38,268 nt of DNA, from the NCBI GenBank assembly GCA_910592345.1, contig CAJVPI010000260.1, forward strand, positions 1-38,268. Reading direction: 5' to 3'. Positions within the stretch are counted from its first letter, which is position 1; every line of letters starts with the position of its first letter. This DNA comes from Paraglomus brasilianum (Eukaryota). Shown one piece after another: positions 472 to 36,506 of the stretch. The notes below the pieces were generated by a model. It made no database searches, had not been told where the DNA came from, and saw only the letters and a list, made by a program, of their open reading frames with translations. Made by a program: the position numbers and the translations under genes.

Positions 472-1169
472 ATTATACAGTCTTACACGAATTTATTCGA
501 GGGTTTACCCATCTTGCAATTAAATACGACGATATGCTCGACACGAGTGAGTTCCGAATAAAATTGGTGCACGATGTCGATGGGTTCGGTCGAATTTAAC
601 AGAAACTAGAAGTTTAGTATTAACTATCTGTTATTAAGCTTACCAGAGAATGTTTGAATATGTAAGAAAGATTGAGTACATTATTTAAAATAACAAGAAT
701 CAACGAATATGAGTTTGTTCTATTCGTTCGAAATAACTGAGAAACGATGCCTACCTGATTTATCAATAATAATTGAATGTTCGCTAATATCGCACAAACC
801 AATCCTCTCTAGATGCACACACTTACGCTTGTGAAGTATGGACAGTCTCATGTCTGCAGTTTTGAAAATACATTAAGCGAGGGGTTTTGTGTCAATCCTT
901 GTCGAATGTTAGGCTCCACTTTATCCTGACCTTTGTCAGCATACCCCAAAACAATGACAACGTCAGTGTTGAAGGGCATCGACTCTTGTCATATGAATCG
1001 AGTCGACCAGACCAGTCATCATGATCATGTATACTAGAAGATTGCTCTCCGTAGATTGCCTTCATGTTTGTCTTGCGTATGAAGCAAACGCTATCATATT
1101 GTTTAATACGAATATAACGTACCAGTGCAAGTCTTTATTAATTTTAATTTCTTGCGAAATATCAATGAT

Positions 1170-1252
1170 GGTGATTTGGCCGAGTTGGTCTAAGGCGCCG
1201 CACTCAAGTTGCGGTCTCGAAAGAGGCGTGAGTTCGAATCTCACAGTCACCA
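1170..1252 (+). tRNA. tRNA-Leu (CAA), intronless, long variable arm
   Basis: Acceptor stem GGTGATT/AGTCACC plus discriminator A; D-arm TGGCCGAGTTGGTCTAAGGC; anticodon stem CCGCA/TGCGG with loop CTCAAGT (CAA at 1205-1207); variable arm CTCGAAAGAG; T-loop GTTCGAATC; T-run downstream. Confidence 0.97.
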
Positions 1253-3127
1253 TTTGTGTTAAAATGTTCCTTTTTCCTCGAATATGATGTAACAAATTTT
1301 ACTACTGATCACTTATAATACTGTGTAACGATCTATTTATAACAATATGATAGTTAACAGTGTACGCGTATAAGGTAGACGAAAGCGCGCCTTTTTATTT
1401 CCACCAGAGATGCTAGTAATTATTAATATCATAGCATCGACCATACTAATTATCGGTATGGCGAGATTATGTACTGTATCTTTGCAAATTCTGTTGCATT
1501 ATTGAAAAGGTACAGGATAGAGTTTAATATTGGGAACGGATGATTTTCTACTTACGCATCTTTATGATACTCTTAGTTTATTTCTTGTTTGTATAAGCCA
1601 TATTATAATTAAGAAATATTTGAGCAATCGCCGCAGTCTAGTTGGCCAACGGGAACAAGCAATCAACAGGGAAAATATTTGTTTCTGACCTGTCAAATAA
1701 ATCAAAAGTTGTCTTTGGTTAATACATATTATCTACCAGACATAAGCTAACTTTAGGCATGTATCCCTAAACCTTTCGGCTACTATTATAATCGCTTTAA
1801 TAACTTGCAACTGTCATTCGGGCCTTGAAATAAAAATTTTTTAATCAGTTTATCAAACGCTAATTTTGATCACTGTCAATTGATTATTGCTTTATACAGA
1901 AAATTTATCAATTTGTAAATCCAAAACAATTATCTCCACAAACACTCAAGCAGTCTTTTGTTTGATAACTTGCTTTCAGATAATACTTTTTCCGGATTTA
2001 TAATTTTATCTATAACACTTTAGACAACAAAGTTATCGAATTCGCACTTGATAGAAATCGAGACGCGGATTTTATCAGCAGTCATCAACTGAAACACGCA
2101 ACAATATATCAAGTAACATTATTTACGCAGTACTTTTAGTATTGAACGTAGACATGTCTATTGAAAAAAGCAAATGTTCAACATCGTTTGTTTATTCTGT
2201 ATTTAACATTGAGAAAATCTCATTCTTGAACTGATGTTGTATTCGACATTGATGAATCTGACTCCACAATTATTCAAGAGAAAAGCTCCCCCCTCGCTTT
2301 TATGCTTTTGGTCAAGCTAACGGTTAAATGGTCATACGTATACCCATATTAATATGACACTAACTGTATATAATAATAATGATGATGGGTTTGCTTCTTA
2401 TTTATTTTAACCACGTAATTTCAACATGTCATGTTTATTTCTTATTCTTGATTTAACAGATATATTATAATGCAAGCCATGAATCCGGTTTTGGGAATGG
2501 AAGATACAAATGTAGGCTTCTGAGCCAAATTTGCAATTACGTGCAGCAATTCTCCAATAACGGAACGATAGGTATTAGTATTAAAGTTGTAACCTCGATA
2601 TTGTTCTTCTTTGGGTGACTGTATTTATACACATACGCTGTTCTAATTCATAGAATGCAGTATATGAGTAGACTCGTGTGTGGCTCTTAGATTAGACTTT
2701 GAATTTAATATTTTCCACAATCGATACACACGCTCATGTTCTACCAGAATAAGAAATACAGTAAACCAATAGTAACTGGATACAAATTTAACGAATCAAC
2801 CAATCCCGTTTTCTTAGCGCTCCAATTGCATCTTTTCAATATGCCGTGGACAATATAATCTCAGACTATGGTTGGACAGTCAGTAGTGTAAAGATTGTCA
2901 ATATACACATACAATGTTGTACTTCAAATAATTTATTGGACCAAAAAAGGATGAGAGGTATAATTAAAAGCATACTATACAACTTTTAGTCCCGTTCCTC
3001 TTCTTCTTCCTTTGGATAATTATTATTTTCTTCCTTAGTTTTGTAGTAATAATTCTAATCAACGTTCTCACTTTTGGATAAATTAATCACTTTCATCTGT
3101 AAAAGTACTGTATATTAGAAAATAAAC

Positions 3128-6879: not shown

Positions 6880-8006
6880 GACAGAAACTATTAAACGTTA
6901 AAAAAGAACAAGGTTAAACTTATATTGTGTGACGTCGTCGATCATTTCAAATTGATTGGGATCAGCCAATGGGGGATCTGAGCGTATTAACAATATTAAT
7001 ACTTAATATGGTTAATTGATAAATTACACAAAAAAATAGATTTGAGCACATAGTATCTTCTAATATTCTATTACTACACCCCAAATGCGATATGAGAAAA
7101 CTATTGTAAAATCAATAAAATATTTCCTGCTTGAAAAAGCTTCTCTTTTAGTTGTGGAAATGAATTTCGCAGTCAGACTCTCACGGATGGCTATGCGTAT
7201 TGCAAATCTTAAACATAGAAGCATGGTTTACGATATTCAAAAATTGATTAATATCAAAGAACGTATTCTTAATAGTAACGCACTTTACATTATGCGTGAC
7301 ATGTACAGTAAAAACATTTAATTAATGGCAAAAATGTTAGTCAGATGCAACTTTCTTTTTTTTTATACAGTCTCTGGCTATTTGTTAACTACAACCTCAA
7401 TGTTATAAAGCAATCGTACTGAAGCATTTAATGCATTGGAGTTACAAAATAACAACCCTTGTTCGGTTACCATTAATTTTGTCTATTGCAATTGCAGCAT
7501 CCTACCGAACAGTCTTATTAAACGCAGCAAGGGTTAATTGAATATTAATTCTATTGATACAACAATCGAAGCCAATATCCTGACTACGTACTTATTGGCA
7601 ATACGCTTAAAACTGGTGAAATGTCTTAAAATTGAAAATTGCGACAATAAAGAATCAGCCCGAGGAAGACAAAGTTATGCAATTTCTTCAACAGAAGGTA
7701 ATTATTATGGTGAATAGTTGATAAATATATCTCTCATTTTACTGAACTGATGGCACGGATGGAGATAAACTTTATAGAAAACTTTAGAAAAAATTAGTTG
7801 GCAAATGTTTGTGTGTTCTCTGATCTGAAATAAGTCTGTTTACATAATTGACTTGCTTGTATAAATAACGCGCCTGTTAAACTGTTATAGGCCCATATAA
7901 GAGAAAACATCCCCCACGCTTGTTAGGCAACAACACTGAAAATTTCCAGCATATTGCATACTAAATCTCTACCGTTCTAAAAATTCATAAACGCACTATG
8001 ATTATA

Positions 8007-8214
8007 TGGGGCATGCTGCAACAAAACCAGACAAAGTGAACATTCAATTATGTGACATAAATGAGGGGCTGGTTATGATGTGGCTGTAAAATTGACCAGT
8101 GTAACTGATGGCATTTTGAAAAGTAATAATGGTGCTCATTCATAACTTATGGACTTGTTAATTTTAATGTTTCCTTTATCATACCAGAATGTGATGAATA
8201 TAAACCATAACAGG
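8007..8214 (+). repeat. Repeat family A end sequence (left arm of inverted repeat)
   Basis: 8073-8214 matches the reverse complement of 13224-13371 (about 5 substitutions, one 7-nt and one 1-nt indel). 8007-8090 matches 21653-21729. Confidence 0.92.
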
Positions 8215-8652
8215 GTGTTACGGCAAGCCGATCTGATGAATCAGATAAGTAAGTCACATGATAAAATCTTCCTCCGCGATCACACATCAAATAGCACAAG
8301 TTAAATTAGTAGCGGCGTTTCGAAATTTCTGCGGCAGGCGCAGCGTTTCAATTTTTCTGCGACAGCACAAGACGCCATAATTCATTTATACTTATTTCAA
8401 TTGATCTTCATAGAATTAGTAGTCTAAAAAGCGTTTCACTTTTTTTGTGATGCTGAAGATATATAAGCAGCTCAATTTCCATCGTATGAAATGTGAAATA
8501 TGTTACAATGTTTGAATGTTGAATAAATAAAATATTATTGATCTTAGTAATATTCCTTTATTATAAATATACGGTTTATTTCTATCGTCGAAATAATTGA
8601 TTATTAGACCGGATACTCCAATAAACGGCTCACTTAAGCTGTAATGGAATAG

Positions 8653-8801
8653 TGTTGTGTCTGAGTTGGGGACCTGTCTCAGTTCGGAACCCAGTCACTC
8701 AGTCCAGAACTCAGTTGTCTCGGTTCGGAACCCAGTCACTCAGTCCAGAACTCAGTTGTCTCAGTCTAGAACTGAGACAGGTCCCCAACTGAGGTACAAC
8801 A
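8653..8801. mobile_element. MITE-like element with 32-bp TIRs and an internal ~39-bp tandem duplication
   Basis: 5' TGTTGTGTCTGAGTTGGGGACCTGTCTCAGTT versus reverse complement of the 3' end TGTTGTACCTCAGTTGGGGACCTGTCTCAGTT (29/32). Second copy at 25699-25814. No clear TSD. Confidence 0.85.
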
Positions 8802-11028
8802 GCATTAATCAGTGGACGCCTGATTGTAATTATTATTTGCCATATGTGTCAGTAGTACAAGCGAGTGATATGGGGAAGTCTGCAATGGTCAAATTGATTT
8901 CTGACAGAGTTTTTGTTGTATACTGTTGTTTGAGGAATGTGCAACAAGAATTAGATCTAGGCTATCCAAAACGGTCCAGTATCACCCCAATCTTGTTGCT
9001 TGATCATAAGTTGACAAAAACGTCAGATAATGGGGATGAAATTTCTGTTCATCCAGAAAACATTCATCTGCTATTTCTGGGTGCTTGTATAGATTTGCTG
9101 GCCACATCATCAAAGACGCCGTCGGAATGGTTTTACTTTCAAAAAGATCATTCTTTTTGGTCACGGATTCAGGCATTGATGGAGGAATTGAAGAATGAAA
9201 TCCCAGAGCTTCAATATGAAACATCACTGCAAGACGAAAGACTCTCATCGGAATTCCTGTTAACTAAATGGAAAAATTTATGTAACACACCACATTTTAC
9301 GAAAGATTTTTGACTCATCTTTGTTTATGATGAATGTTGCAGTCTTGTCGAGAAAGATATTTTTTACATGCTTGTCGAGCTTTCAGAGCACTACCAAGAA
9401 TGGAATCTGTATCATCTTTATTTGTTATAGTTATGGATACACTCTCACGGATTTCTAATTTTTCTCCAACAAAATGTTATGAACCTTCAACACATGCTTC
9501 AGTCTCACAGATGCGACTTTTTCCACCATATTATCTTCTTGACTTTGTTGACATTTTTGTTCCTCAGACATCTCCGACAACCTTAAGTGAGTTTGCAAAA
9601 CCTGATCACTGGATGCTTTATGGGCAACCACTGTGGGGAGCTTTAGTACAGGCACAACAAACCAAAGAAGATCTGAAAAATAAATATCCACTGTTGGATA
9701 TTTTACTAATGGCTGCTGGTAAACTTATTGGTGGAGTTGATTTTCATAATTGGTTTTCAAATTATAAGATAAAAAATGAAAGAGTTACACCCTTGGTTGC
9801 TATTGCTGTATTGGGTCAGAGAGTTGCACTCAACATAATACCACAGTCAGAGATTGCAATGGAATTAGTAGCAAGTGCTATTACTATGCGAGTTTGTCTA
9901 CATATTACAGAAGATCGTGGAACTATCCTATCAACATACTTGTCTGAGCCAACTTTAAGTGAGGCTGCTGCATATATCATGAACATTGACAATGGGTTAC
10001 TTGTACCAGATCTGCTGACTATGTTAATCAATAGTATCAAAGAAGGAGTTGCAGAGGCCAGTTATCATGGTGAATTAGTAGCACGTTTTCTCTTACTTTT
10101 GGCATATGATTATGCCTATAGTCAGTTTATAGCAAATGTGTCATATTTTCCTGGCTATTATTCACAAGTCATCACTGTGCAACAATTCTTGCAGGCCTTA
10201 CTGGATTATGAGACTTTTAACCTAATTGCAACAGATATTTCCACCAGTAAACCCAATACATCAGCACCACTAGGTGAAGGTTATATACAGTTCAATCACT
10301 TTGTTTCAATAACCTACACACCTTCAAGAAAGCAATTGTTGAAATTCTTAGAACGAGGAGCTGCTGTATTATGCAAACATAACCAATGTGGTGTAGACAT
10401 TATCATACCAGTGTTACTAGAGCCTGGAGGAAGGATGAATATCAATAATATAACCTACATTCTTGTGCAAGTCAAAAACTGGAGACATACACCATCACAA
10501 CATCAAGTCCAAGAAGCTTCAAGAATGAAACTCTCACCTGAGTTTGCTGGAATTACCACACAACATTTATTACCTTATTTGTCTCTCTATTTGCAACTGG
10601 GTGGTGAGAAATGCACAGCACACATTGTGGAAGATATTGGTATTTTACCAGAAGTTGACCAACTGCATAAATTAGTTTTATCAGAACCCAATTTATTGAA
10701 ACGTCCAGCTGACAATGCAGAAATTCCCTTGAAAAGAGTCAAAATTGGCAGAAAAAAACGCTATCCATCAGATACATCAGTTTTTTCTGTGATATGTCAG
10801 ACTTTCCAAGTGTCATTAGCTGTTTATGGTCTTGGAAAAGAGGTGTATGCTTGTTTCAATCATTTCACAGCCATTGAGACCCAAACACAGATTTTAACAT
10901 CTCTGAGAAAGCTCTTGGTTGCCTGGCCTGATGCAGCTGAACTTGAGAATGATAGTAAACATGTACAACATATGCAACCATTAGTATATGTTGATGCAGT
11001 CAATAATAGTGACAATAATATTTTGTAG
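8802..11028 (+). pseudogene. Intronless P-loop NTPase plus C-terminal PD-(D/E)xK (REase-fold) nuclease gene, Crinkler/CR-effector-like architecture; disrupted
   Basis: YYLPYVSVVQASDMGKS (degenerate Walker A, 8858-8881); Walker B LIFVYDE directly after in-frame TGA 9311-9313; frameshift near 9355-9365; later YGQPLWGA, YLSEPTL, GELVARFLLL, FNHFV and nuclease motif GVDIIIPV...ILVQVKN. Confidence 0.78.
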
Positions 11029-11513
11029 CTGTCATTATGATAAGAATATTCTTATACCATGTCTTTGCAATTAAATATTAAAGATTAGATTGTATTACAA
11101 TATTCTGATATCAAATTCAATTCTGAGTATGACTTCTGGAGCAGTATTATTTGCCTGGCATTATATATTGGAATAAAACAGCAGTCTAAAGAAAAGCAAA
11201 ACACTATGTTTGTACCTTGTCAATTTTAATTGATATTAATATCACAATTTGCTTATCAATCATACTTTACACAAATCATGGCATTTACATAACCTGTAAA
11301 GGAGATGTAATACAGAGATGTGCATCAAGATAAAAGAGTGACTTTTTGGATAATTTATTCGATTTAAAAAGTTTGATAAATGCAAGTAACTTGAGATTTT
11401 AGAGTGATATTAACCACTCGAATTGCTTCTCTCCTTTTAGCAAGAAAATTGAAAATACTAATCCAAAGATAGGTTTACAAAGTATTAAAACTTATATATA
11501 GGATTACCCGTAT

Positions 11514-12601
11514 ATGATAAATAACGAATATAATGGCTCCACCAAACATGAAAAAGCAATACGTTTCTTGGAGACAGGTTGCAATTGTGGTTGCTCAAAA
11601 ATGATTCCGAGAGAGAAGTTTGCTGAATTACGTGAGGCGTTTCAAGCTCTCTCTAGATCCGAACAAGATATATTTTTAATGGCCCAGTTGAAAGCAATGA
11701 ATGGCGGAGAAATAACTGCCAGCTGACGTCTTAAAAAAAATGCGTACTAATAAGCGAACATTCTACTATTGAGATCGTAATACATCTCTTTGCCAGAAAA
11801 CGTATCTTAATATGTTAGGAATTGTCGCACTCACTTCGAAAACGTCAGAAATCACCTAGCGACAAATGGTATCGTACCGGGCGTTCATGGTAATATAAAA
11901 CGAATGCCGCGATGGAAAACCAAAATCACCATTGATATAACCGTTGCTACTGCCATGAAAAATTTTCTCGAAAATTATGCTGAAATTCATGGATTACCAA
12001 GTCCGGGTAGAATTGTCAATCGCATTACTCAATTGCTTACACTTCTGCCAGCTGAAACAAGTTGCAAATCGGTCTATCGTGATTTTATTGCAGGCCTCGA
12101 AAACGATAGCGCGTTGAAATTGTTAAAATATGATGCATTTCGCAAGTTATGGCACCAATTAACGCCTTATATTCAAATAATGAGTCCAAGAACGGATTTA
12201 TGTGACACGTGCCAACATTTCCGGAATGGCTTACAATATAATGCTCGTAAGGAAGAAGAGGCAAGAGACTTACTAAAGAAATTCAAAGAACATCTGGTTA
12301 AGGCTAAATTAGAGAGAAATTATTACAACAAAAAGACGAAATTAGCAGAACAACAGAGGAAATTGGTAAATGAACATTTTATAGCAAGAGGTAAAGCTGG
12401 TTATTGTAGCGTTGACGCTACTGCTCATTACAGTTACGATTGAGCGCAAAACGTTCACGTTCCCCATTCCGATCAACAAGTAAGATTTATTATCTTAGTC
12501 CGCGTAAAGTGCATTTATTTGGTATACAAGATGAAGCAGTGCGCGAACAAATTAATTATGTTCTCGATGAAGACGAAATTATCGGCAAAGGTCCTAATGG
12601 T
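11514..12601 (+). mobile_element. Sola1-like (DUF7869-type) DDD transposase, 5' part, truncated at GKGPNG
   Basis: GCNCGCS, VHGN, HGLPSPG, PRTDLCDTC, HYSYD(W)AQN (first catalytic D), YYLSPRKVHLFGI, DEDEIIGKGPN; several frameshifts and TGA codons. Confidence 0.8.
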
Positions 12602-12878
12602 AAAGAATTTACTGAAGACGGAATTGTTAAATACTATACTAAAAAGTTAGGAGGACAAAATCATGTTCAGAAGAAGTATGAAAGCCCTTTGAGGATCAGC
12701 AACAAGAAGTGTTCTGAACTTGAAAAAATCCTCTGGCTATCTTATCAGTAATTGGATTGCTTTCATGGCCGGAGGACTGGTGTGAGCTATTCTGAGCCGG
12801 AAAAAAATAGCTTCTTGATGAAATCAACCTGCTGAAGCCAAAAGTGATGAATTTGATAATGATGAGGAAGAATGGTAG
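12602..12878 (+). pseudogene. 3' fragment of a single-pass membrane protein gene readable with TGA=Trp (code 4); putative Mollicutes-related endobacterial origin
   Basis: With two 1-nt repairs in homopolymers (~12682, ~12762) and TGA=W: KEFTEDGIVKYYTKKLGGQNHVQKKYEKPFEDQQQEVFWTWKNPLAILSVIGLLFMAGGLVWAILSRKKIASWWNQPAEAKSDEFDNDEEEW*. TGA at 12715, 12721, 12783, 12816, 12819. Confidence 0.65.
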
Positions 12879-12928
12879 ATAAAGTTGCTGGAAACACAAA
12901 AAAGGTGTTCTAATAATGATTTGATTGT

Positions 12929-13186
12929 TTATTCTGCCAGTCTTCTTTTCTTTATTGGTTCACCATAAGTTGGCGTTAATGCTCGTTTAGTAGTTATGAT
13001 TTTCCGTTCCTCTTGATAAATTTCATAAGTGGTTTTTTCTTGATCTAGATATTGCTGGAGCATTTGGGTATCATTGATTTTGAAAACATAAGGGGCAATT
13101 TTTTCTCCTTGAGCTTTCTTTAGGATGCTTCTAATAGTGCTGTAATTCTTTGGTTCCATGGTGGATTTAATGTAGATTAGTTTCAT
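12929..13186 (-). CDS. Small 85-aa hypothetical protein with C-terminal basic motif PIKKRRL
   Basis: Intact ATG-to-TAA intronless ORF; paralogous decayed copy at 21756-21988 differs mostly at synonymous positions. Confidence 0.65.
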   Translation of the reverse strand: MKLIYIKSTMEPKNYSTIRSILKKAQGEKIAPYVFKINDTQMLQQYLDQEKTTYEIYQEERKIITTKRALTPTYGEPIKKRRLAE

Positions 13187-13223
13187 ATTAATATTTTTTA
13201 TATAGGGATAATCCTATATTAAT

Positions 13224-13371
13224 CCTGTTATGGTTTATATTCATCACATTCTGGTATGATAAAGTGAACATTAAAATTAACAAGTCCATAAATTATGAAT
13301 GAGCACATTATTACTTTTCAAAACGTCATCAGTCACACTGTACACTGGTCAATTTTACAGCCACATCATAA
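13224..13371 (-). repeat. Repeat family A end sequence (right arm of inverted repeat, outer ~65 bp missing)
   Basis: Reverse complement of 8073-8214. Confidence 0.92.
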
Positions 13372-15526
13372 TATATTACAACCAACAGTCATCGGATCGA
13401 ATGATTCAATACATGCGTAGTAACTACGTATATTAATAATATTACTGTTCACAAGTAGAAATAGTTTACCTCACAAAAATCAAATAAATCGTGCGCATCA
13501 ACTACCGTCTTTTACCATTTATTTGTCGTCAGTTCTAACCAATCTGCTACCCGCGTGCATCATGATGTGATAACGTCGTCTCTCGTATGTTTGTCAATCG
13601 AGAATATTCCGTCCATTGTATATGTTTCATGCCATTGCTAGTCCATTCATTGGATAATTATTTACGTCGAACAACTTTCTATCAGCAACCAGATAATAGC
13701 TGCCATCATATTCGGTAACCTTATCATGCTATTGCATACCCGCCTGTTAGAAGTGAGTATTTTCTGGCAAACTCACTCATTACTTACTGCTGGTGTATGG
13801 TTTTCAACGCTTCAAAGTAAAAGAATCATCTCTTTATAAATTCCAGCTTACAGTGGATTATTTGTGTCAACTTGGCCATATTTTGAATGAGGAATGCCCA
13901 AGGAGATTACTTAACAGTCTTCGTACTCATAATCGCGACACCAATTTAACAACTACGTGTTGACTCTTTTCGCAGCATACAATGTGAAGTTGACGTTCAG
14001 CCACATTTCTTTACTAGTTCGTTTTTAGCAAATTGTGCGTCATAGTCAGTAAATATTGTATTGAAATGCGTAATGTTTACAAACAAGTTTATGGAAATTG
14101 GTATGTTTTTCTAGCGCTCGTTCATAACTGCGTAAATTAACAAAAATAGCAATGTATTCCGAACAAAATAAACTATAAATGGTTAGCACTAAAATGCTCG
14201 CTCAAATTCAACAAGTTCTCAGTTTGACCAATTCAGACTAAAAACTATTTTACGTATCTGGGAATGTAAACAGCGATTGTACAAGTTCTCTGCTTGGGCG
14301 GATATACCACTCATACTTGTAATATTGTTGACTAATGATTATTAAGTGTCAAGAATGGCCCGGACGTTTTTCCTTAAACGGTTAGTTCAGCGAAAAATCA
14401 AAAACCAGCCCTTTCGCATGGCGCAGTAGGACTAGAATCGATGAGGCTAGCTAAATACAATGATTTGTGGAGTTGCATTGCTATTGTGTCATTAACTATC
14501 CATTTCCTACGCCCATGTTGCGGTGTTTATTTCCTTCTTTAGTTGCATAAATGTGTTCATTACTATTGTAAGACTACCATACCAGCAAAATGATATTACT
14601 ATTTAGTAATGCCATTCTACACACGTATTGTTTAAAGCGTGTTGTCAAAATGATGAAAGCATGAGCATTTTAATATTAAATCGGCCTTGATAACAGCGTT
14701 GCCTGTTTGCTGCTATATAATTAATATGACGCGACTAATTGTACAATACTCGTGATAAAAGTTATTTTACCTTGCCAAGTACATAATACTTAAGTAGTTA
14801 GATCAAGTGTTAAGCAGAGTCTGAGTTTCATAATATCTATCAAGATTACTATTAATTATTGGTATTCATATTAAAATGAATGTGACGATCGACAAAAGCT
14901 TCGGAAACTCGTGAAAACGGTTTCAGAAAGCAAATTCCTTGAGTAACTATTCCAATAGGACGTCTCAACCAGATCATCTACCGATGATCTTGAGAATCAG
15001 ACTTGTGACTGCATCTCTTTATGCCGTTTTAAACGATAGAATCCGCTGGCCAATCATCAAGTTGCGTTCAATTGACAAATGATCCACAACTCGCGAAACA
15101 CTTCTCCAATATATCATTTCAAATAACAACATTTTAATATTCACATCCAATGCCTGTGGATACTTTTATAAATAAATAAATGCTCACTAAAAGTTGTTCA
15201 TTTATACAATATCAAAATATACTCTAGCTTTGGTTTTTACATTAAAGCCGGTTAAAATAATATCACAAATAATGTAATGCAAAATAATACAATTAAACTT
15301 TAAGAATCTGTCTATCTGCATCAAATGGCACATCTCGAAATTCTCTCATACGGAACAACGAAGACGTAGAATTATAGAAATATGATGGAAAAATACAAGT
15401 GACAATACATTGAACACATCGATTACACCATATTATCCCAACAAATAATCAACCGCCCATCTCTGTCATTAACACCTGTCACTTGATATAATTAATTCTT
15501 GTTATAATGAAGCCAGTAAACTAAAT

Positions 15527-18500: not shown

Positions 18501-20068
18501 CAGTCGGAATAGTCATTGTCTACTTGAAACAGCTACCCATATTATAACCGTGAATTAATTTTTAGACTCACCTGCTCTAGTCTCCTTGGGCAAGTGATAC
18601 TGTAGCAAACATTCTCTCGCGTACATGTCGGCGAATAACAGTCAGTCAATAGCGTGAATACACCGTTGGGTAGATCAGCTTCTTGCGCTTCCGCTTCATT
18701 AGATGCCTCATCAAAATTACCTGGAGAAGACATGATGGAAGGCATTCTATGAAATTGATACAATTCGTTTGGAGAGTCGCGAAGACGGTGGTCGTAAGTA
18801 ACATCATGGAAAAACTTTTGGGCATCTAATGCGCGACCGAGCAACAACGCCAGATTTCTGTCTGTTGTTTTGATGATAAAAGCTATAGCTTCCTGTTGAG
18901 ATCAATTGGATGCAGGAAAAAAAAAGGGTGATTATCACAATGTCAACTATCTGAAATACAAGTCGTTACACATGCATACCACAGCATCTTTCCCATCAAA
19001 ACAATCTTTGTATTCTATGTCGTCTTTAGTTTTCGTTGACATGATTATCCTGTGACGGAACGTCTCTGCCACTCTAGAGAGTAGGGCAGGATATACCATC
19101 GGAATGCGCGATATTGAATACGGAGTTTTCGGAGACACCGTAGTGCTCGATGACTCCGATGATGATACATCAGAGAATGTGATTGATCGGTGGCGCTGAT
19201 GTTCGACGTGACTAGCGGATACAGATCTCTTCTCCCTTCTGGGGATGTTATCTGAACGAGCAGGTATAATGAGACCGGGTCCTAAAGAAAGTGATTAAAG
19301 GTTATGAACAAAGTATATTCCGGGATTGATGTCCCTATGGTCTTCCTATAATAATGTAAATTCTTGCATCATAATATCAACTCTCTTTTTTTTTCCCGTA
19401 TCTTCACACTTGTAATCCTATCAAATCATTGTATTCCCAAAAAACTATATCTATTTTTCATGACAAAATTTCTCGCGGCAATTGTTAAGCTCAATGACTC
19501 GTTCAAAACTTTCCAATCCATTCCTGACTATCATCATAAAATGGGAAGCATGTACATACCGTTTATGGTATTTGAACGATTAAAATTGGTACTTATTAGA
19601 GGTACATTAGAATTGGTTGGCTGTATACGGCCTGCCGTGGACATTGATCTTGTAGCGGATGGGTGAATGCGCTGAGAATGGATCTCAAGCTGTGGAGGAG
19701 ACTTGGCCTGTGCCAGCTGTTGATAATTCTGATATGTCGGAATAGAATGCTGGGGAAGATACATAGACTGGTGACTATGTCCATTATAATGCGAGTACCT
19801 TAGATGCTCGTGAGAAACCGAGTGAGTGAGAGGTGTGTACGAGTGAGAGGAGTGAGAGGAGTGAGAGCGATGTTGTTGAGGGTGGTGAGAACTGTATTGC
19901 GACGAGCGATTTATTGCACGCGTATATGACTGGTAGCGTTGCGGCAGTTGCTGTTGGTGCTGCTGTTGATGCTGCTGCTGCTGCTGTTGTTGTTGTCGTT
20001 GTTGCTGTTGTTGCTGTTGTTGTTGTTGTTGCTGTTGTTGTCGTTGTTGCTGTTGTTGTCGTTGTTGC

Positions 20069-20114
<46 letters not shown>

Positions 20115-20358
20115 GCTGCTGCTGCTGTTGTTGCTGCAGTAGTGATGGAGGTGGTATTGAAGGAGGTGGTATTGAGGGCGGTGGGAATTGGGGTGGTAGC
20201 CGTGGTTGAGACGATAGTTGAGAAGTGAGAGATGTAAATTCGTCATATATCGAAGTTTCTAAGCTTGTGGGACTTTCTGGAGAGTGTGGTTGATATGGGG
20301 TATAACTCCTTGGCCCACGCGGTCTCCGCATCTCGAAATCGTCATAGTGAGCACTCAT
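15527..20358 (-). CDS. ROM2: Rho1 guanine nucleotide exchange factor (ROM1/ROM2/Rgf1 family): low-complexity N-terminus, DEP, DH, PH and CNH domains; multi-exon
   Basis: VYPALLSRVAETF, DGKDAV, LLGRALDAQKFFHDVTYDHRLRDS (DEP); GVFTLLTDCYSPTC; EKKRQEAINEVIYTEKDFVRDL (DH); PIPLQLL..YPITFTYIGKKG (PH); YPYILAFEASLIEVRN (CNH). Start codon tentative because a possible splice acceptor lies just upstream. Confidence 0.93.
19945..20138 (-). repeat. CAA/CAG trinucleotide repeat encoding a polyglutamine tract of about 60 residues
   Basis: (TGT/TGC)n on the plus strand, in frame in the ROM2-like first exon, with Arg/His interruptions. Confidence 0.95.
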
Positions 20359-21652: not shown

Positions 21653-21988
21653 TGGGGCAGGCTGCAACAAAACCAGACAAAGTGAACATTTGATTATGTA
21701 ACATAAATGAGAGGCTGATGTGGCTGAAAGTTAACTCTATAAAAATAAAATATATAAACTAATTTACATTAAATCCACTATGGAACCGAAGAATTACAGC
21801 ACCATTAGAAGTATTTTAAGAAAGCTCGAGGAGAAAAAATTGCTTCATACTCAATGATACCCAAACTCTCCAGGAATATCTAGATGAAGAAAAATTTACT
21901 TATGAAATTTATCAAGAAGAACGAAAAATAGCGTTCATTAACAGCAGCTGATAATGAACCAAGAAAAAAACGAAAGCTAGAAACGTAA
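21653..21988 (+). repeat. Third copy of repeat family A: end sequence (internally deleted) plus decayed copy of the 85-aa ORF
   Basis: TGGGGCAGGCTGCAACAAAACCAGACAAAGTGAAC matches 8007 onward; KLIYIKSTMEPKNYSTIRSIL...PRKKRKLET* matches ORF 12929-13186, with frameshifts and a damaged first ATG. Confidence 0.88.
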
Positions 21989-22689
21989 AATAAATAGGTG
22001 CTTTCTTACTATCATTGGGATTATTATTAATAAAGACATCAAATTCAAGACAAATTTTTTCATTGGTTCTTTGTCGACATATTCATCCGACTTTTATTCT
22101 TACAAACCAATCCAAACTTTAGGAGACGATGATGCGTTTGTTTATTTGTATCAAAGACTGTTTAATCCGTAACCGTAGCGTATTTTAATGTTACCTGATG
22201 AACTCATTATAAAAATAACACGACCTGCACTTGTATTTTAACTCAGAAGAATCAAATCATAAAATCATTCCAGTATTGATATCGAAATAATTTATTCGAT
22301 AAAAAAACTTGCAAACAACAAACGATTCAAAAAATGCTTGTTTTTATTATTCAATTCTTTTGCGGGTTGTTGATCGGAATTATCCTTGATCTCTCGCTCC
22401 ACTATGAAATGCATAATCAACTTGATAATATGAACGAAAAGCTTGAGATAACAGTTCAAGCAGTTAAATCTAAAGTAAACGTTCATTGAACGACATTATT
22501 CGTTCAGCATTGACATGTGTTAATCCAGCAAAATCCTTTAAGATTAAACTTTTGTGCATATGAATTTATATTTCCAAGCAATATACGTGGTATTTTACAC
22601 TTACTGTTACTCTAATTTAACATTAACCTCCGTTATACCTTTGTGCATGATTAGACTATTATTATACTGACTAAACCTCGTCATACTTT

Positions 22690-22722
22690 GCCCGGTCGAT
22701 ATAGTCGACCGGGCTGCTCTAG
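22690..22722 (+). mobile_element. Helitron-like 3' terminus (GC-rich hairpin plus CTAG followed by T)
   Basis: GCCCGGTCGA-TATAG-TCGACCGGGC perfect 10-bp stem, then TGCT, CTAG (22719-22722), T. Confidence 0.55.
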
Positions 22723-23269
22723 TCTATTTCACATTTAGTGTTTAGTATATGTTGATGGTGCAAATGGTTTACATAGAATACAAATAAAGATTATTTGCTA
22801 TTTGAGACAAGCTTATTATACGACCATTTGACAATGAAATGAAGTCCCACATGGCTTATATTGAGCTTAGCGATTAGTACGATAGAGTGTGAGTTTACTA
22901 TTGTTGCTAAATCTATTGGTTAAATTTTACCGCGCAGAATATAAATTTTATTCGGACACAGCCTGACCATGTTGCTTCTCGCGTTTGAAACATGGCTTCT
23001 CCCTTGCCTTTTGAGTTTCTTAAATAATTTTTGACGAGTGTGCAAACGATTACTCCATACTTTACTCCTGCATTTTACTTAACAGAAGTTGGTGTGTGGT
23101 AGCTCTTTAATACTTGTGGGCCAAACCTTTCACTTTCAAGTCGGAAGGATGTAATCGTTCAATCAACGGAAAACCTCACAAACCACATTTGTTGAATGTT
23201 TTACTAACATTGATTCTCTGAGAATATGCAAAAAAAATCCGTTTGATTATAGTCTTTACTTGAGGGAGA

Positions 23270-23896
23270 TGCATTTTTCCTTTACACAAAATCCACCCCA
23301 AGCAAAAATTTTTGTTCTGTCCTTGGTACAGTGAAATGCCATTCATCAGAAAATAATGTTTTCCCCTCAATTATCATTAAGATGCTGTCTTGCCCACTGT
23401 ACTTTTTTCTTATGAGTTTCAGTGAGAATTTGTGTAACTATTGGTAGGCTTTTGGAGTAACTAAGACAGGACAAATGCCTTGAAACAGTCATTAATGTCT
23501 TCTGAGTTAACATATTTGCCAATGTTCTGGTTGGGAGAGTAGTATCTCTTCGAATATACTGTCCCAATGCTTTCAAAGCTTCGGCCGACCGTTTCCTTTT
23601 GCATGGCTACACTTCCTGTTTTTTTTATATTATAGCCAAAGGTATGTTTGTCCTCCTATGTATTTCTTGACCATTGGTTATGCCTTGATTCCATAAGTGT
23701 AATATTTTTGACGTTGTGTTTCTTTGGCGGAAGTCATTTTTTTGATAATTGGAAAAACAGAATAACATGTGTGTTACACGTATAAACAAAAACACGCATC
23801 AAGTATTTTTTTCAATGACGCGAATTGGATTTTTTGGAAAAGTTATACGCGTTTTTACCAAACAAAAAAATATATCTTTTTTTTTTTGTTACACTG
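23270..23896 (-). mobile_element. Tc1/IS630-family transposon, 5' half, decayed
   Basis: End TA|CAGTGTAACAAAA; ATG at 23737 giving MTSAKETQR..ILHLWNQGITNGQEIHRRTNIP..KGNGRP, VQWARQHLNDN(W)..TLFSDE, PKDRTKIFAWGGFC. Confidence 0.82.
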
Positions 23897-25698
23897 TAAC
23901 AATTGGTGTTATGATGTGATATGATGCGATTGCTTGTAATCCTGAGTAATCGTAAAGACGATATATTAACATTATGTAGTCATAATTATATACGGATATT
24001 GTCACAGTATATGTATTATAAAAGAACATTATATTGCTCAATAAAGAATGACTTTTTAGCTAAACGTCTAAACAACCGTCCACTGACTTTAAAATTACCA
24101 ACATTATTTTGAATACACACTGTATGAGTATTTTTCAATAAACGGTCAAATTACATAAAAAAGTATCGTGTACAATAACAACAGACCATTAAAGGTTAAT
24201 AGTACATTACTCATATCGAATACTGGCCTTGGAATTTAGCCTTTTCCGACGAGATTCTTGACTAGCTCTACTTCAACTAAATCTACAATGTTAATTAGTG
24301 ACCTTTACATTGGGTTTAAATACTCACGATGTTAAATCGGTCTTGTTACACTTTCATTATTCAATCTTGAATAATACGTCTATTGCTCTCTGCGGGATTA
24401 ATTCAAGAGCCTATAGCGATAGGTCGGGGAAATTAAATGCGCAATAACGAATTAAATAATAACCCTGTTGTCAAGATTCTTTAGCACCGACGGCATGATC
24501 GACACTATTTACCACTGATCGAGAAAGCGTTCTAAACACTTTATCAGCGATAGAATACTTATGACTAGGGAACGAACGATAAATTACGTATTTGATAATT
24601 CATGTTTCTTTATTAGAATTCAAAGAGCTATTCTAAAGTTATTTATTACAATTAATTAATTGAAGGACGAGCTAAAAATCAGCAAATTTGTCCTTATTTA
24701 TTTATTTATTTCGTATCACTGTTTCACCGCGTGTTGTTTATAGCGCATTTCCACAAGCATTACACTGATGAATCCAATGTAGCATGTTTGTGTTACTGAG
24801 CGGAAATCACGGACTATACATGCCACGTCCGCCTTCTTATACCAACTCCATAATAAGTCGAGACCGTTTATTTTCTTGATTAGTACCTATAAGATGCTGG
24901 CAAAACTTATTAGTAACAATAACTTGGTTATGATGTTTCTCACAAATCGCATACGAGGTATGAAGAACAAACATAGGTATGATATAGTGCGAGTTGCTTA
25001 GCTGTTTTCTGAGTATTGCATGCCGCCAAACTTGCGATTTTTTTGTCTCACAAGGCCTTAACCCAATTTCACTACACTTTCCGTCAAACTCTCAAAGACG
25101 CACGGAAGGTCTCTTGCTCGTGGCTTTGGATAGACTGACACTGTCAAAAGGTTGTTTGAGATACAACTTAGTTAGCATGCTGTTTTGTCTTAGTCAAGCC
25201 AAGTACTTTTTCGAAACGAGTTGATTATTCTTGATTACTGGAAAATATGAAAAGTAGACGCCTTTTTCTTATGTATTTGCGTAGTTTTAGCTGCAAATGA
25301 TAATCGCGAAAATCCAGAAAACCCGTCTGTGTAAACCAAGAATTTCACGCAGATTATGCTCCTCTTTGGTATACTCCCTGACTGAAAAAAGTTTTGGCCG
25401 TATAAAATAAGCAATTGAAGCCTGATTACTTTATTTGGTAACTGAATAGTAATAGCCAAGACGAAATATTCAAGCCGAAAAATGCCAAGCACTTGTAATT
25501 TCCACTAGTTAACACTATCTTCAGCCATCTTCAGCTTATAGCTCTTTGATCTTAACATTTCTTTAATATCTTGTATTTCATTCATTAATGTTCTTCTTAT
25601 AATAAATCGGTATTTTAGTCCGGATAAAAATAATCGCTGTATTATTTCCTGGCCATTACGATGTGCTAACCCAATACGGTATATTTGGACATAACTTA

Positions 25699-25814
25699 AT
25701 TGGGGACCTGTCTCAGTTCTGGACTGAGTGTCTGGGTTCTGGACTGAGACAACTGAGTCCTGGACTGAGTGACTGGGTTCCGAACTGAGACAGGTCCCAA
25801 ACTCAGACACAACA
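25699..25814. mobile_element. Second, inverted copy of the 8653-8801 MITE
   Basis: TTGGGGACCTGTCTCAGTT...AACTGAGACAGGTCCCAAACTCAGACACAACA; one TIR lacks its outer bases. Confidence 0.85.
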
Positions 25815-26129
25815 TATATATAATTCCGGGAATTATATGGTGACGCACATAACTATGATATACCGTGCGTAACGAAAAAACCCCGTGCCATCCAAAATTG
25901 ACAAGAAAACGTGTTATTGATTACAAACGCAACCAACTACCATGCACTAAACATATTTAAGTACTATAGCAGATATCTCGATTAGTCCTTGCAACCTGGT
26001 CAACACAAGACTCGAAGAAACAATATACTATTATTGGCTTGGGGGTCCAATCCCTAACGAAAATACTGTACATCAAAAAACCAATATTCCTAAAGATACA
26101 GGAAATGTTGAGCACAAGAAGAGTAATAG

Positions 26130-26283
26130 GGGAGGTAATCATTTCATCGATAATCATTTCACCGACAATCATTTCACCGACAAATATTCACCAACATTAT
26201 TTCGAAGTTATCCTTTTTTGGTAGTTAATTGTCGGTGAAGTGTACTGTCAGTGAAATGATTGTCGATGAAATAATACAGACCC
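26130..26283. mobile_element. 154-bp Mutator-type (foldback-like) MITE with perfect 9-bp TSD
   Basis: GAGTAATAG at 26121-26129 and 26284-26292; GGG...CCC ends; ~55-bp imperfect TIRs built from 15-bp AATCATTTCACCGAC units. Confidence 0.9.
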
Positions 26284-26344
26284 GAGTAATAGACTCTCTC
26301 TCAAGTTACACAACTGTCACTCGCGCCGTTGAATAGCATGTGTG

Positions 26345-26660
26345 CAAGAAAACGCCTTAGTTTTCTTCATTGATATAATAGATAGCCTTTTTATGTAAGT
26401 ATATTGCAGACACAGCTCTTGCCTGCTGCCAAACACATATGCATAGCAAGAACTGGCATCTGCGACAAGATAATGAGTTATTCAAAGCATACCTCAATGT
26501 TACTAAGGATTTTATTGTAACAAATGGAATTTGGACTAGTGGCTGACCATTCAATAGTCCAGACCTAAACCAAGTCGAAAAGTTCGTGACTAAAGAATTG
26601 GAGAAAAAGGACTGTTGAAATTAAATCTCAACAATAAATGGGGATAGAATTTTGTATAAA
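26345..26660 (+). mobile_element. Tc1/IS630-family transposase, 3' (DDE) half, decayed
   Basis: VFFIDIIDSLFYVSILQTQLLPAAKH, WHLRQDN..SKHTS, (W)PFNSPDLNQVE, INGDRILY. Confidence 0.78.
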
Positions 26661-26685
26661 AATTATACGTATAATAATTTATGTG

Positions 26686-26812
26686 ATTTACATTATGCCG
26701 AGGTAAACTAATTACTTATGTTTATTGAATAGTTTAAATAATTATTGACTTATTATCATGTATCATTTTCACTAGTTATGTAATAAGCATCCAGATATTC
26801 TTACCACAGATG
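26686..26812 (+). repeat. Captured fragment of TKL kinase gene family including a complete intron
   Basis: Aligns to 37147-37274: TATGCCGAG|GTAAAC...CACTAG|TTATGT.ATAAGCATCC.GATATTCTTACCAC.GATG. Confidence 0.88.
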
Positions 26813-27300
26813 AGTGCATTTATTTGGTATTCAAGATGAAGCAGTACGCGAGCAAATTAACTATGTTCTCGATGAAGACGAAATTATCGGCAAAAGCCCT
26901 AATGGCACGCTGAGCATGGTATTCGATGGGATTAAGAGATTGAATAAAGGCGAAAAACGTCTAAAGATTACTTGTGATAATGCGGGGGGACAGAATAAAA
27001 ATAACGCCACTACTTGATTTTATTTGTATTTGGTTATCTGCGGCTATTATGAAAATATTGAATTAAATTTTATGGTACCTGTACACACTAAATTCAAGTG
27101 TGATGGTAGTTTTGGATTAATTAAAAAACTATACCGCAAAACAACAGTGGATTGCGTGAATCATATTGTTGAGGTTGTGAAAAGATCAAGTACAGCCGGA
27201 TTAAATAAATATCAGCGTTATGATAACGGAAAAGTTTTCAATACAAAAATATAAGCATTTTTTATTTAAAGCAGCCAATCCTGGAGTCGCCAAAACCCAA
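26813..27300 (+). mobile_element. Second Sola1-like transposase fragment (catalytic core)
   Basis: VHLFGIQDEAVREQINYVLDEDEIIGK is near-identical to 12509-12600; continues ITCDNAGGQNKNNATT(W)FYLYL, FMVPVHTKFKCDGSFGLIK, HFLFKAANPG. Confidence 0.85.
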
Positions 27301-34330: not shown

Positions 34331-36506
34331 TGGCCGAAATTTAAATTCGTTTTTGTTATTGTCAAGCATATTAATATTAATACAATCACAGTATTTCCGG
34401 CACATGAAAATTTCCATTCCTATATGGTTATACTTTCCTATATTCTTTTTTCCTTGTCCAGTATATACTAAGCGTCATTAGAAGCGTAGGGGCGGAGACG
34501 AAGAGGGAGGAATAAAGCATGCCAGTGATGCCAGACAATTCACTGGCCACAGATTGCATAGTTATCGAATAAGTACCTTTCAGACTATCGAACAAAGTCC
34601 AGTCGGTGATTGGCTTTAGATTGCTGGGGGAGTTGCTCTTTCTATATTGAGAAGCATTTGTGCAAAAGCTGCTTCCGTAATTGTTCCTTTGATTTGGGCC
34701 GCTAAGTAATTCTCAAGCGCGTGCCAATATACACTATACTGCCAATTTGGCGTATTGGAAGCGCCTTTATCCATTCATATAAGGAAATAGGATCGTTCCA
34801 GTTAGGAACTGATAGAGGATGGATGCACAAGTAAATTGGGTGTGATGGCGAAGGGTAGGGTGGATAAATGGAACGAGTGATAAATATGGATGTGATGATA
34901 TACAAGAAAAGCGACAAACAATACCAGTGATATTTACCTTGCTGTTTTCGTTTCCGTGCAAGATAATTTCCCCATCCTTAGCATCGTGATTGTTTGCTCT
35001 GTATTCAGCAGCAAATTCTTCGTATTCTTGAGAGTCTATCATGTTTGTCAAATTATGAGAAGAAAGAAAAGAACGTGTAGCTGCGCGCGTTTATATCTTG
35101 CTACGCATCATGGGAAAGATCACGTTCTGGAACAATTGACGCGCATCAAATTATACTCCTGATGACGTTTCATACATACGAATATTCCGCTGACACGTGA
35201 TAATTAAAGTTACATTTAGTATCCCAAGTTTGTAACATGAGACGCTTATTTATTTAATGTTATCTGGACTTGAAGCTTGAAATAGCTGTTACGAAAAACG
35301 TTTAATCCGTTGGATGTACATCATTTATTGCGCAAATTATTTTTCGGTCACACTATTTTTCAGAAATTTATTATTCTTATCTTTCGAATAACCAAATAAA
35401 ACCAGAAAAAGGGAATACGAAAACCGGTTTAAAAGGACAGGCACCGCCAGCATATATAAGCCGCGAATAATTATATTAACGAAATAAAAATTAGCCACTC
35501 TGTGACTGCCTTCGACAATGAATTATAACCATATCTGCCATTAAAAATATAAATTGAACAATACAAATAAGTATAGCGATGAATTATTATAACAGGAACT
35601 GATGATACGTACGTAGTAACGATAACTATTGTAATAATTTTACCAATTAATTAAAATATTTACACAGGGATCGGTAATAATAACATATAATGTTAGCTTA
35701 TTCAATAGTTTGCATATACGACACATCTTACATCGACTTTTCGTACAAGTCATCCAGTTCAACGTTACGTGTAATAGAGCTTAACGTATTTTGTTCCTTT
35801 AACTAAATGCGTAGATGATCTGTAATTGACCAACCACATTTTAGCTTAAATTCCAAGAGCGAAAAGAATTAGTTAATATGTATGTCTATGAATAATAAGT
35901 CTCAACTGCTACTTCAACAGGCACTATTACTTGCAAATTCTTCTAGTGATAGTGAAGAGTCTCCTGATGGAACAAGTTCTGAATCAAGCGATAATGAACT
36001 GCTGACATAATTGAATACGTGTGTCGTCTATTTATTATGCGTATTTTGTGGTCTGATGTGTTCCAATTTTTATTACCTAAATTAGATATCCCCAAATTTG
36101 GAAAGAGAGAAAAATCGGAAATGAAAAGGAAAGACGGTAATAGTAATAGTAAGTGTTACTCACGGATCATCTCCGTGACTGTACAGTCGTACCTCATTTG
36201 TATCCCCTATTGTATCCGACTATAGTAATCTGCCTCTGGTTTATATGCCCTATTACTATCTCCTTTCTATTTATATAATCTGTGCCAGACTTGTACTACC
36301 AATTGAATATCATGCCAATGCCACTTTAATAAATTCTCAAGTGCAAATCAGGCCGTAAAATAAACATATTAATATAAGAGAGAGCATCTTGCTTATTTTC
36401 GCAAAGTCTATTAACCAATAAAATCGCATGCTTTAAATAACGTTGCACACACTCCCCGAAAAAGATAAACGAGGTACGATGTACTTGAAAACTTCTTATT
36501 CAAACG

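What the first reader, a model, noticed from the sequence alone, without database searches (positions are those of the whole stretch)
8007..13371. ~5.4 kb cargo island bracketed by long inverted repeats: NTPase-nuclease, Sola transposase, code-4 gene and small ORF
Seen: 8073-8214 and 13224-13371 are near-identical inverted repeats. A third copy (21653) shows the full end starts at TGGGGCA.GCTGCAAC and that the 85-aa ORF lies just inside one end, while different sequence lies inside the other, as expected for the two arms of a long-TIR element. The interior is an intronless mosaic of apparently different origins. Inference: a Pack-MULE-like or composite mobile element that assembles effector-like (NTPase plus REase) and endobacterial-like cargo, possibly an undescribed vehicle for fungus-endobacterium gene traffic. 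No TSD can be read because the right arm is truncated.
Basis: partly seen in the sequence, partly recalled or inferred. Interest (0 to 1): 0.8.

Follow-up and report, generated by a model that had tools for sequence, protein, structure and literature searches.

The report
Two-code transposon bridging fungus and endobacterium
This is a broken copy of a jumping-gene family in mycorrhizal fungi whose transposase and one set of passenger genes are written in the Mycoplasma genetic code while its other passengers are in the fungal code, so it likely shuttles DNA between the fungal nucleus and bacteria living inside the fungus.

Summary
The inverted repeats are real and are the ends of a multi-copy Sola1-type (DDD, DUF7869) DNA transposon, not a Pack-MULE. 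Ends start GGGGCA; 29 of 30 distinct junctions have A-N-N-T outside. The 'Sola transposase' is the element's own enzyme and is itself in code 4: intact relatives are open only if TGA=Trp, swap TGA/TGG at the same tryptophans and show dN/dS 0.05-0.14. Relatives share one layout: end, 85-aa ORF, standard-code membrane/HTH gene, Crinkler-type gene (some with introns), code-4 transposase, operon-like code-4 cargo, 85-aa ORF, end. Gene models from five arbuscular mycorrhizal genera repeat the neighbourhood, and a Ca. Moeniiplasma protein falls in the code-4 clade. Both halves are under purifying selection in different codes, so the family likely cycles between nucleus and Mollicutes-related endobacteria. 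The window copy is decayed (frameshifts, internal deletion, right end cut). Not shown: a complete element inside an endobacterial chromosome, a paired TSD, or an empty site. The scan noted the recoded transposase before on other DNA (e1-7557336); the ends, target rule and two-code architecture were worked out here.

The parts
8004..8007 (+). Target-site tetranucleotide ATAT outside the left end
   Evidence: A-N-N-T in 29 of 30 distinct junctions, ATAT in 18; background 42 of 360 positions
8008..8214 (+). Left terminal inverted repeat, starting GGGGCA
   Evidence: carried by 39 of 44 loci that hold more than 250 nt upstream of the small ORF
8215..8652 (.). Left-arm interior; small ORF and HTH gene of typical left arms are absent; 8531-8652 is itself repetitive
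   Evidence: No match in the 80 loci; variants and loose ends at 8531 and 8652
8653..8801 (.). Unrelated palindromic MITE inserted in the element
   Evidence: Second copy near 25700-25814; 30 and 28 contigs with unrelated loose ends at 8653 and 8801 in run X1
8802..11028 (+). Crinkler-type P-loop NTPase + restriction-endonuclease-like gene, standard code, decayed: 5' end missing, in-frame stop at 9311-9313 and a frameshift nearby
   Evidence: 30% identity, E 1e-39, to the 939-aa gene upstream of the transposase in L021; 10 TGG and 0 in-frame TGA in its two open pieces; CpG o/e 0.29; nuclease label from motifs, by eye
11490..11513 (+). Conserved TATATAGGATTACCC motif just before the transposase start; a similar motif lies before the small ORF (13192-13219, minus strand)
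   Evidence: (I22); promoter role inferred
11514..12602 (+). Sola1-type DDD transposase in code 4, decayed: private stop at 11724, frameshifts near 11736, 11823, 12477, last ~225 codons deleted
   Evidence: intact relative P0122 hits DUF7869; invariant D310, D389, D431
12596..12878 (+). 3' part of a code-4 membrane-anchored cargo gene, two frameshifts, joined to the transposase at a short shared GGTA
   Evidence: 55-82% identity in three frames to intact code-4 ORFs of L023, L024, L040; family uses 40 TGA and 2 TGG
12929..13186 (-). 85-aa ORF, intact; predicted ferredoxin-like fold with basic C-terminal tail; reads alike in both codes
   Evidence: 835 homologues; dN/dS about 0.10, 1 Trp codon in 54 copies; 53 of 54 stops TAA; model pLDDT 78; weak Cas2/VapD and other ferredoxin-like matches
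13187..13371 (-). Right terminal inverted repeat, outer 65 nt missing; abuts a decayed kinase-family gene fragment

Best explanation
The island is a decayed copy of a Sola1-type cut-and-paste transposon whose transposase and right-arm cargo are in genetic code 4 and whose left-arm cargo is in the standard code, and the family likely cycles between Mollicutes-related endobacteria and the fungal nucleus. Shown: defined ends, A-N-N-T target preference in fungal-type DNA, conserved gene order, purifying selection on each half in its own code. Inferred: (1) the transposase and operon-like cargo are translated and selected in the endobacterium; (2) element DNA reaches the nucleus and is pasted in by a transposase, most likely made from rare copies whose Trp codons are all TGG and so readable in both codes; (3) in the nucleus the left arm picks up or swaps Crinkler-type genes, which are expressed there; (4) whole elements sometimes return to the bacterium. 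The 85-aa protein in the repeats is predicted to be an accessory factor usable in both compartments.
For: Ends and target. Outer flanks read as fungal sequence (helicase, kinase, LINE-like), none with a code-4-only long ORF among the termini with 250 nt or more of flank. Code 4: seven copies have no stop but TGA at Trp positions; W87, W135, W214 occur as both TGA and TGG; dN/dS 0.045-0.135 in 18 informative pairs of 21, and 0.03-0.14 in the stretches on either side of each TGA. 17 of 19 NCBI fungal gene models that span W311 skip it, while 7 of 7 Rhizophagus/Glomus outgroup models keep it. Right-arm cargo: TGA:TGG 35:4, 35:7, 28:3, 40:2, dN/dS 0.20-0.49, 6-nt gaps between genes, only TAA/TAG stops in 23 of 23 complete ORFs, GC 0.29-0.32, within the 29-33% reported for MRE assemblies (PMC11423566). 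Left-arm HTH gene: 36 TGG to 1 TGA at aligned Trp, dN/dS 0.30. A Crinkler-type gene ends 206-563 nt before 5 of 6 transposase starts; introns in two. 8 of 15 inspected NCBI models fuse such a gene to the transposase start, 6 of 15 fuse cargo to its end, over five genera. Ca. Moeniiplasma protein P0162 lies in the code-4 clade, 99/99. MRE are annotated in table 4 and hold host-derived genes (PMC10507103). P0235 keeps four of four covered Trp in a fungal gene model. The transposase is not CpG-depleted (1.36-1.43), unlike the adjacent nuclear-type gene (0.29).
Against: No element with these ends was seen inside a bacterial chromosome: scans of species genomes, viral contigs and plasmids found none. 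The Moeniiplasma protein is only 52-55% identical, 329 aa, in a sister subclade. Six cargo and HTH clusters listed no Moeniiplasma-named member; MRE-likeness of the cargo rests on code, composition, spacing and recall. No contig holds both ends, so no TSD pair. L017, L018 and L021 share one junction and may be assembly chimeras; L013 and L057 are near-identical. The code of P0235 is assumed from its being a fungal annotation and its fifth Trp is not covered. This copy's left arm interior matches no relative. The tree is midpoint-rooted and gives no direction of transfer.
Confidence: 0.55

Rival explanations
1. Same two-code element, but nuclear insertion is done by transposase made in the endobacterium and delivered with the DNA (a T-DNA-like route); no nucleus-readable copy is needed.
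For: Nearly all copies seen keep TGA next to the first catalytic Asp, yet intact copies sit beside intron-bearing genes; basic NLS-like stretches in transposase and small ORF (sequence).
Against: Needs protein-DNA export from bacterium to nucleus, for which nothing here gives a route; a possible all-TGG copy exists (P0235).
Confidence: 0.22
2. One-way traffic and chance assembly: a code-4 right-arm unit keeps entering the nucleus and lands or recombines next to resident Crinkler-type genes; the left repeat at 8008 is a separate insertion, so the 5.4-kb block never moved as one.
For: Left-arm interior is unique; NTPase gene is low-depth and CpG-depleted while the transposase is high-depth and CpG-rich; no empty site or TSD pair seen.
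Against: Same order and strand in 5 of 6 transposase starts and in 8 of 15 gene models from several genera; the sequence before the transposase has no sharp end (junctions from 11477 to 11496); P0208 joins small ORF, Crinkler-type gene and transposase.
Confidence: 0.13
3. The code-4 compartment is the mitochondrion or an unknown cytoplasmic replicon rather than MRE.
For: Fungal mitochondria use table 4 (tool description of the table); no complete element seen in a bacterial genome.
Against: Named relative in Ca. Moeniiplasma; operon-like spacing and C-terminal membrane anchors in cargo.
Confidence: 0.06
4. Purely nuclear element expressed by stop-codon readthrough, RNA editing or a suppressor tRNA.
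For: All flanks seen are fungal-type.
Against: Cargo genes carry up to about ten TGAs each; no readthrough context (C follows 18 of 136 TGAs); no TAG at Trp sites; no tRNA in 80 loci; host exons checked use TGG only.
Confidence: 0.03
5. Pack-MULE carrying a dead Sola gene as a passenger.
For: Long TIRs and captured host-type genes.
Against: Target conservation covers four bases, MULE TSDs are 7-12 bp (PMC10741241); the Sola gene is under strong selection and sits at a fixed place.
Confidence: 0.01

Closest known systems
Sola1 DNA transposons (Sola superfamily; DUF7869)
   Same: DDD triad, RNase H-like fold, 4-nt A..T target, long TIRs and size within the reported range (PMC10741241, PMC3845634, passages); Sola1 is reported from Rhizophagus (PMC5751038, passages).
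   Different: Transposase in code 4; protein-coding ORF inside the terminal repeats; cargo in two codes; positions 2-3 of the target are looser than AWWT (5 of 30 have C or G).
Pack-MULEs and other cargo-carrying TIR elements
   Same: Long TIRs around captured host-type genes.
   Different: Not MULE by target length or enzyme; keeps its own selected transposase; half of the cargo is bacterial-type.
Host-to-MRE gene transfer and MRE mobile elements
   Same: MRE use table 4, hold fungal-derived genes and many transposases (PMC10507103, PMC4916391, passages).
   Different: Those reports concern single genes in bacterial chromosomes; here an element with defined ends is amplified in fungal-type DNA with bacterial-code genes still under selection.
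IS607-like elements transferred from prokaryotes to eukaryotes (PMC3673617, abstract only)
   Same: A transposon crossing the bacterium-eukaryote boundary.
   Different: Prokaryotic family, rare one-way transfers, no code barrier; here a eukaryote-type family with signs of life on both sides.
Crinkler-RHS (CR) proteins
   Same: NTPase+REase and REase+kinase C-terminal architectures, transposon links (Zhang et al. 2016 as reviewed in PMC5289972; PMC6131194; passages).
   Different: This copy has lost its header and is broken; whole genes ride in a fixed slot of a transposon; secretion not tested.

Membership tests
Sola1 | DDD catalytic triad in an RNase H-like transposase | tested here: met
   Invariant D310, D389, D431 in 46 sequences; model pLDDT 82, best fold matches IstA, TnsB, integrases, though all E > 0.001; DUF7869. 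The window copy has lost the last two Asp.
Sola1 | AWWT-type 4-nt target preference | tested here: met
   A-N-N-T at 29 of 30 junctions, strict AWWT at 24 of 30; hallmark per PMC3845634
Sola1 | 4-bp target-site duplication on both sides of one element | tested here: inconclusive
   No contig holds both ends; right end of the window copy is missing
Sola1 | Terminal inverted repeats | tested here: met
   Same ~210-nt end (about 420 nt with the small ORF) on both arm types
Sola1 | Placement among Repbase Sola1 references | not testable with these tools
   No Repbase; the Sola label of DUF7869-type proteins is recalled, backed by triad and target
Pack-MULE | 7-12 bp TSD and MULE-type ends or enzyme | tested here: not met
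   Flank conservation spans four bases; no MULE domain in the transposase
MRE-resident mobile element | Genes in code 4 under selection | tested here: met
MRE-resident mobile element | Complete copy flanked by MRE chromosomal genes | tested here: inconclusive
   Only a sister-clade protein on Ca. Moeniiplasma contigs up to 125 kb; its DNA could not be fetched; exact-pattern genome scans blank
Crinkler (CR) protein | NTPase+REase or REase+kinase C-terminus | tested here: inconclusive
   Walker-A-like and nuclease-like motifs by eye; kinase and NTPase Pfam hits in relatives; no Pfam hit for the window gene
Crinkler (CR) protein | N-terminal header domain | tested here: not met
   5' end is cut at the MITE in this copy
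Cas2/VapD nuclease (small ORF) | Ferredoxin-like fold with catalytic acidic residue at the end of strand 1 | tested here: inconclusive
   Fold fits, best E 0.011 and Z 7.6 or lower, tied with unrelated ferredoxin-like domains; no Asp/Glu in residues 2-9; catalytic motif recalled

The most novel reading that the evidence does not exclude
A cross-domain shuttle transposon: a eukaryote-type Sola element that must pass through both a bacterial endosymbiont and the fungal nucleus, keeps one gene set for each genetic code, and uses endobacterium-made transposase to paste effector-like and bacterial genes into host chromosomes, spreading across Glomeromycota with host-switching endobacteria.
Probability: 0.3. 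Interest if true: 0.95.

Novelty: new variant of a known kind. Interest (0 to 1): 0.8.

Why it matters
[quoted passage not shown] This family has defined ends, a target rule and a code watermark that tells in which compartment each gene was selected, so direction, timing and mechanism become testable. It may move Crinkler-type genes between fungal genera, and it is a candidate natural integration system for fungi that (from my own knowledge) lack stable transformation. It also warns that fungal gene models of this family are mis-spliced around TGA codons and that code-4 DNA in these assemblies is not always contamination.

Tried and rejected
No whole genome is held, so copy number, pairing of ends and TSDs could not be counted. 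I first read a 71-aa code-4 ORF at 12663-12878 behind an AGGAGG motif as a bacterial gene; it had no homologue and its first half is a shadow frame: rejected. The 28-nt inverted pair 11496-11523/13192-13219 as TIRs of a nested Sola element: rejected, since the small ORF runs on into the long repeat in relatives and the junction before the transposase is ragged. Species-genome scans found only a distant decayed relative, L081; viral, plasmid, PDB-sequence and Rfam searches were blank; PHROGs, NCBIfam and Atlas gave nothing informative for cargo or small ORF. No RNA holder was listed; three runs guessed to be RNA gave a few low-depth contigs and no verdict on expression or editing (40 of 302 difference rows shown). 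Contigs of three soil runs cover parts of the NTPase gene and flanks, but none bridges the block and none of 15 shown joints (of 136) skips it, so presence/absence is untested. Summed contig depth is 100- to 1000-fold higher on ends, transposase and small ORF than on flanks, but it is no copy number. ARAGORN's tRNA-Pyl at 8711-8802 is the palindromic MITE. Bao 2009, Zhang 2016 and Naito 2015 were not held. No complex prediction was run.
Full report
Setting. The window is nuclear DNA of a fungus: intron-bearing septin and RhoGEF-PH-CNH (ROM2-like) genes flank the island. Named homologues of the island's genes come from arbuscular mycorrhizal fungi. No whole genome is held, so the family was studied through 80 metagenome loci, the best of 213 that encode the small ORF, through protein collections and through contigs of public runs.

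Observation. The inverted pair 8073-8214 / 13371-13224 is 91% identical over 149 columns and far above chance (209 bits against at most 46 in 100 shuffles). The third end at 21654 and its small-ORF relic are real. The 85-aa ORF has 835 homologues, dN/dS about 0.10 over 54 intact copies, and is tied to the repeat: 39 of 44 loci with more than 250 nt upstream carry it. All ends start GGGG(C/T)A; 29 of 30 distinct junctions have A-N-N-T just outside, against 42 of 360 background positions. An AWWT-type target is the Sola1 hallmark (PMC3845634, passages); Sola elements have DDD transposases, 4-bp TSDs and TIRs of 11-1124 bp, MULEs 7-12 bp TSDs (PMC10741241, passages).

The transposase. Relatives L013, L017 and L021 hold a full 587-aa frame, four more loci hold parts; none has a stop except TGA at tryptophan positions, and W87, W135 and W214 appear as TGA in some copies and TGG in others. 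dN/dS is 0.045-0.135 in 18 of 21 pairs (two do not overlap, one is near-identical) and stays low on both sides of each TGA. The protein hits DUF7869, has three invariant aspartates, the first directly before a TGA-Trp, and models as an RNase H-like transposase with weak matches to IstA, TnsB and integrases. Of 26 NCBI fungal gene models of the clade, 19 span W311; 17 skip it and 2 keep it, whereas 7 of 7 Rhizophagus/Glomus outgroup models keep it. So the code-4 spelling is family-wide. In a 55-row tree of the catalytic part (hits covering more than 180 aligned residues of that part; the rest left out) the family and a Ca. Moeniiplasma protein form one clade, 99/99, the latter in a sister subclade; the root is only a midpoint.

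Architecture. Of the 80 loci, 25 also hold a membrane-anchored HTH-like gene (HTH label by eye), 21 continue into long code-4 ORFs, 17 are too short and 17 are unclassified. The HTH gene uses TGG at 36 of 37 aligned Trp, dN/dS 0.30. The code-4 cargo families use TGA:TGG 35:4, 35:7, 28:3 and 40:2 with dN/dS 0.20-0.49, are spaced 6 nt apart in three loci and stop only at TAA or TAG. A Crinkler-type gene (NTPase-nuclease or nuclease-kinase) ends 206-563 nt before 5 of 6 transposase starts, on the same strand, with GT..AG introns in L013 and L017. Independently, of 15 NCBI models inspected because they carry extra sequence, 8 fuse such a gene to the transposase start (Geosiphon, Ambispora, Funneliformis, Diversispora) and 6 fuse cargo to its end (Ambispora, Geosiphon, Gigaspora); P0208 begins with the small ORF, and P0185 carries the same NTPase-nuclease family as L021 and the window. 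The full layout, pieced from overlapping loci and about 8-9 kb long, is: end, small ORF, HTH gene, Crinkler-type gene, transposase, code-4 cargo, small ORF, end. No single contig shows it whole, and L017, L018 and L021 share one junction and may be chimeric.

The window copy. It keeps this order but is decayed: the left arm lacks small ORF and HTH gene and carries a MITE; the NTPase-nuclease gene is cut at the 5' end and broken; the transposase has a private stop, three frameshifts and loses its last ~225 codons in a deletion that joins it to the tail of a code-4 membrane-protein gene; the right end lacks 65 nt. Ten of 58 private changes in the transposase are CpG transitions. Contigs of the best-holding run span each junction by only 23-40 nt, and that run may be the source of the window.

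Mechanism. Precise ends at a preferred 4-nt target in fungal-type flanks mean transposase-made insertions, not passive leakage. Selection on TGA-bearing genes means translation in code 4; selection against TGA in the HTH gene and introns in the Crinkler-type genes mean expression and capture in the nucleus. Readthrough, editing or suppression fit badly. MRE are annotated in table 4, carry host-derived genes and many transposases, and switch hosts (PMC10507103, PMC4916391, passages; PMC11423566, first third of the text). I therefore infer a cycle through both compartments. Which enzyme works in the nucleus is open: a copy with TGG at all Trp would be readable in both codes, and P0235 keeps four of four covered Trp in a fungal gene model; delivery of bacterium-made enzyme is the bolder rival. 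The small protein has almost no Trp codon and ends in TAA, so it reads alike in both codes; it models as a ferredoxin-like domain with weak, non-specific Cas2/VapD matches, and an accessory role is a guess.

Against. No complete element was seen in a bacterial chromosome; those scans use exact peptide patterns and may lack these MRE. The Moeniiplasma relative is 52-55% identical. Cargo clusters listed no MRE name. No TSD pair, no empty site, no expression data.

Novelty. Ten literature searches listed no paper on a code-4 Sola element or a two-code transposon in these fungi; 'Moeniiplasma' with 'transposase' gave 0 papers. The library lacks most subscription journals, Bao 2009, Zhang 2016 and Naito 2015 were not held and are known here second-hand or recalled, and I opened no supplements; MRE genome supplements may list this transposase. 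Sola1 in Rhizophagus is known (PMC5751038, passages), as are Crinkler architectures (PMC5289972, PMC6131194, passages), few bacteria-to-AMF transfers (PMC5982333, passages) and IS607 transfers (PMC3673617, abstract); a 2026 review's passages on MRE mention no such element (PMC13315312). An earlier scan note on another genome reports the recoded transposase and dozens of intact relatives in a bacterium-like genome (e1-7557336); I confirmed the recoding but could not check that genome. Verdict: a new variant of Sola1 with an unusual two-compartment life, interest 0.8.

Noticed in passing
window 21654-27306: Second, more decayed copy of the same element: end at 21654, small-ORF relic, HTH relic (22331-22477), a Tc1/mariner-like relic near 23259-25268 (by eye), a kinase-family fragment (26686-26812) and the transposase's C-terminal part (26813-27306) with TGA at W402.
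   Followed up: partly
window 8653-8801 and 25700-25814: High-copy palindromic MITE with internal 41-nt repeats and no clear TSD; ARAGORN miscalls it as tRNA-Pyl.
   Followed up: partly
window 13380-14000 and 36500-38100: A decayed paralogue of the kinase-family gene at 36500-38100 abuts the truncated right arm.
   Followed up: partly
window 26138-26275: Another short palindromic repeat with 15-nt units, also present in L037 inside an HTH gene.
   Followed up: no
L017:5504-5837, L018:2810-3143, L021:6745-7078: Two element ends face outward across an identical 334-nt spacer bounded by ATAT; may be two neighbouring insertions, a tandem or a circle junction.
   Followed up: partly
L048:1-72: The outer ~70 nt of the end is inverted at the very point where the window's right arm is cut, hinting at a fragile or secondary target site inside the repeat.
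   Followed up: no
proteins P0128/P0130: A 72%-identical transposase subfamily with 33 cluster members, many on contigs of 39-236 kb from one kind of source; could be a bacterial genome with many copies.
   Followed up: no
protein P0428: Distant small-ORF relative fused to a Trp-rich tail that I recall as typical of MRE proteins.
   Followed up: no
window 1169-1253: tRNA-Leu(CAA) gene.
   Followed up: no
window 19907-20182: Long triplet-type repeat (poly-Gln on the minus strand) in the 5' part of the ROM2-like gene.
   Followed up: no
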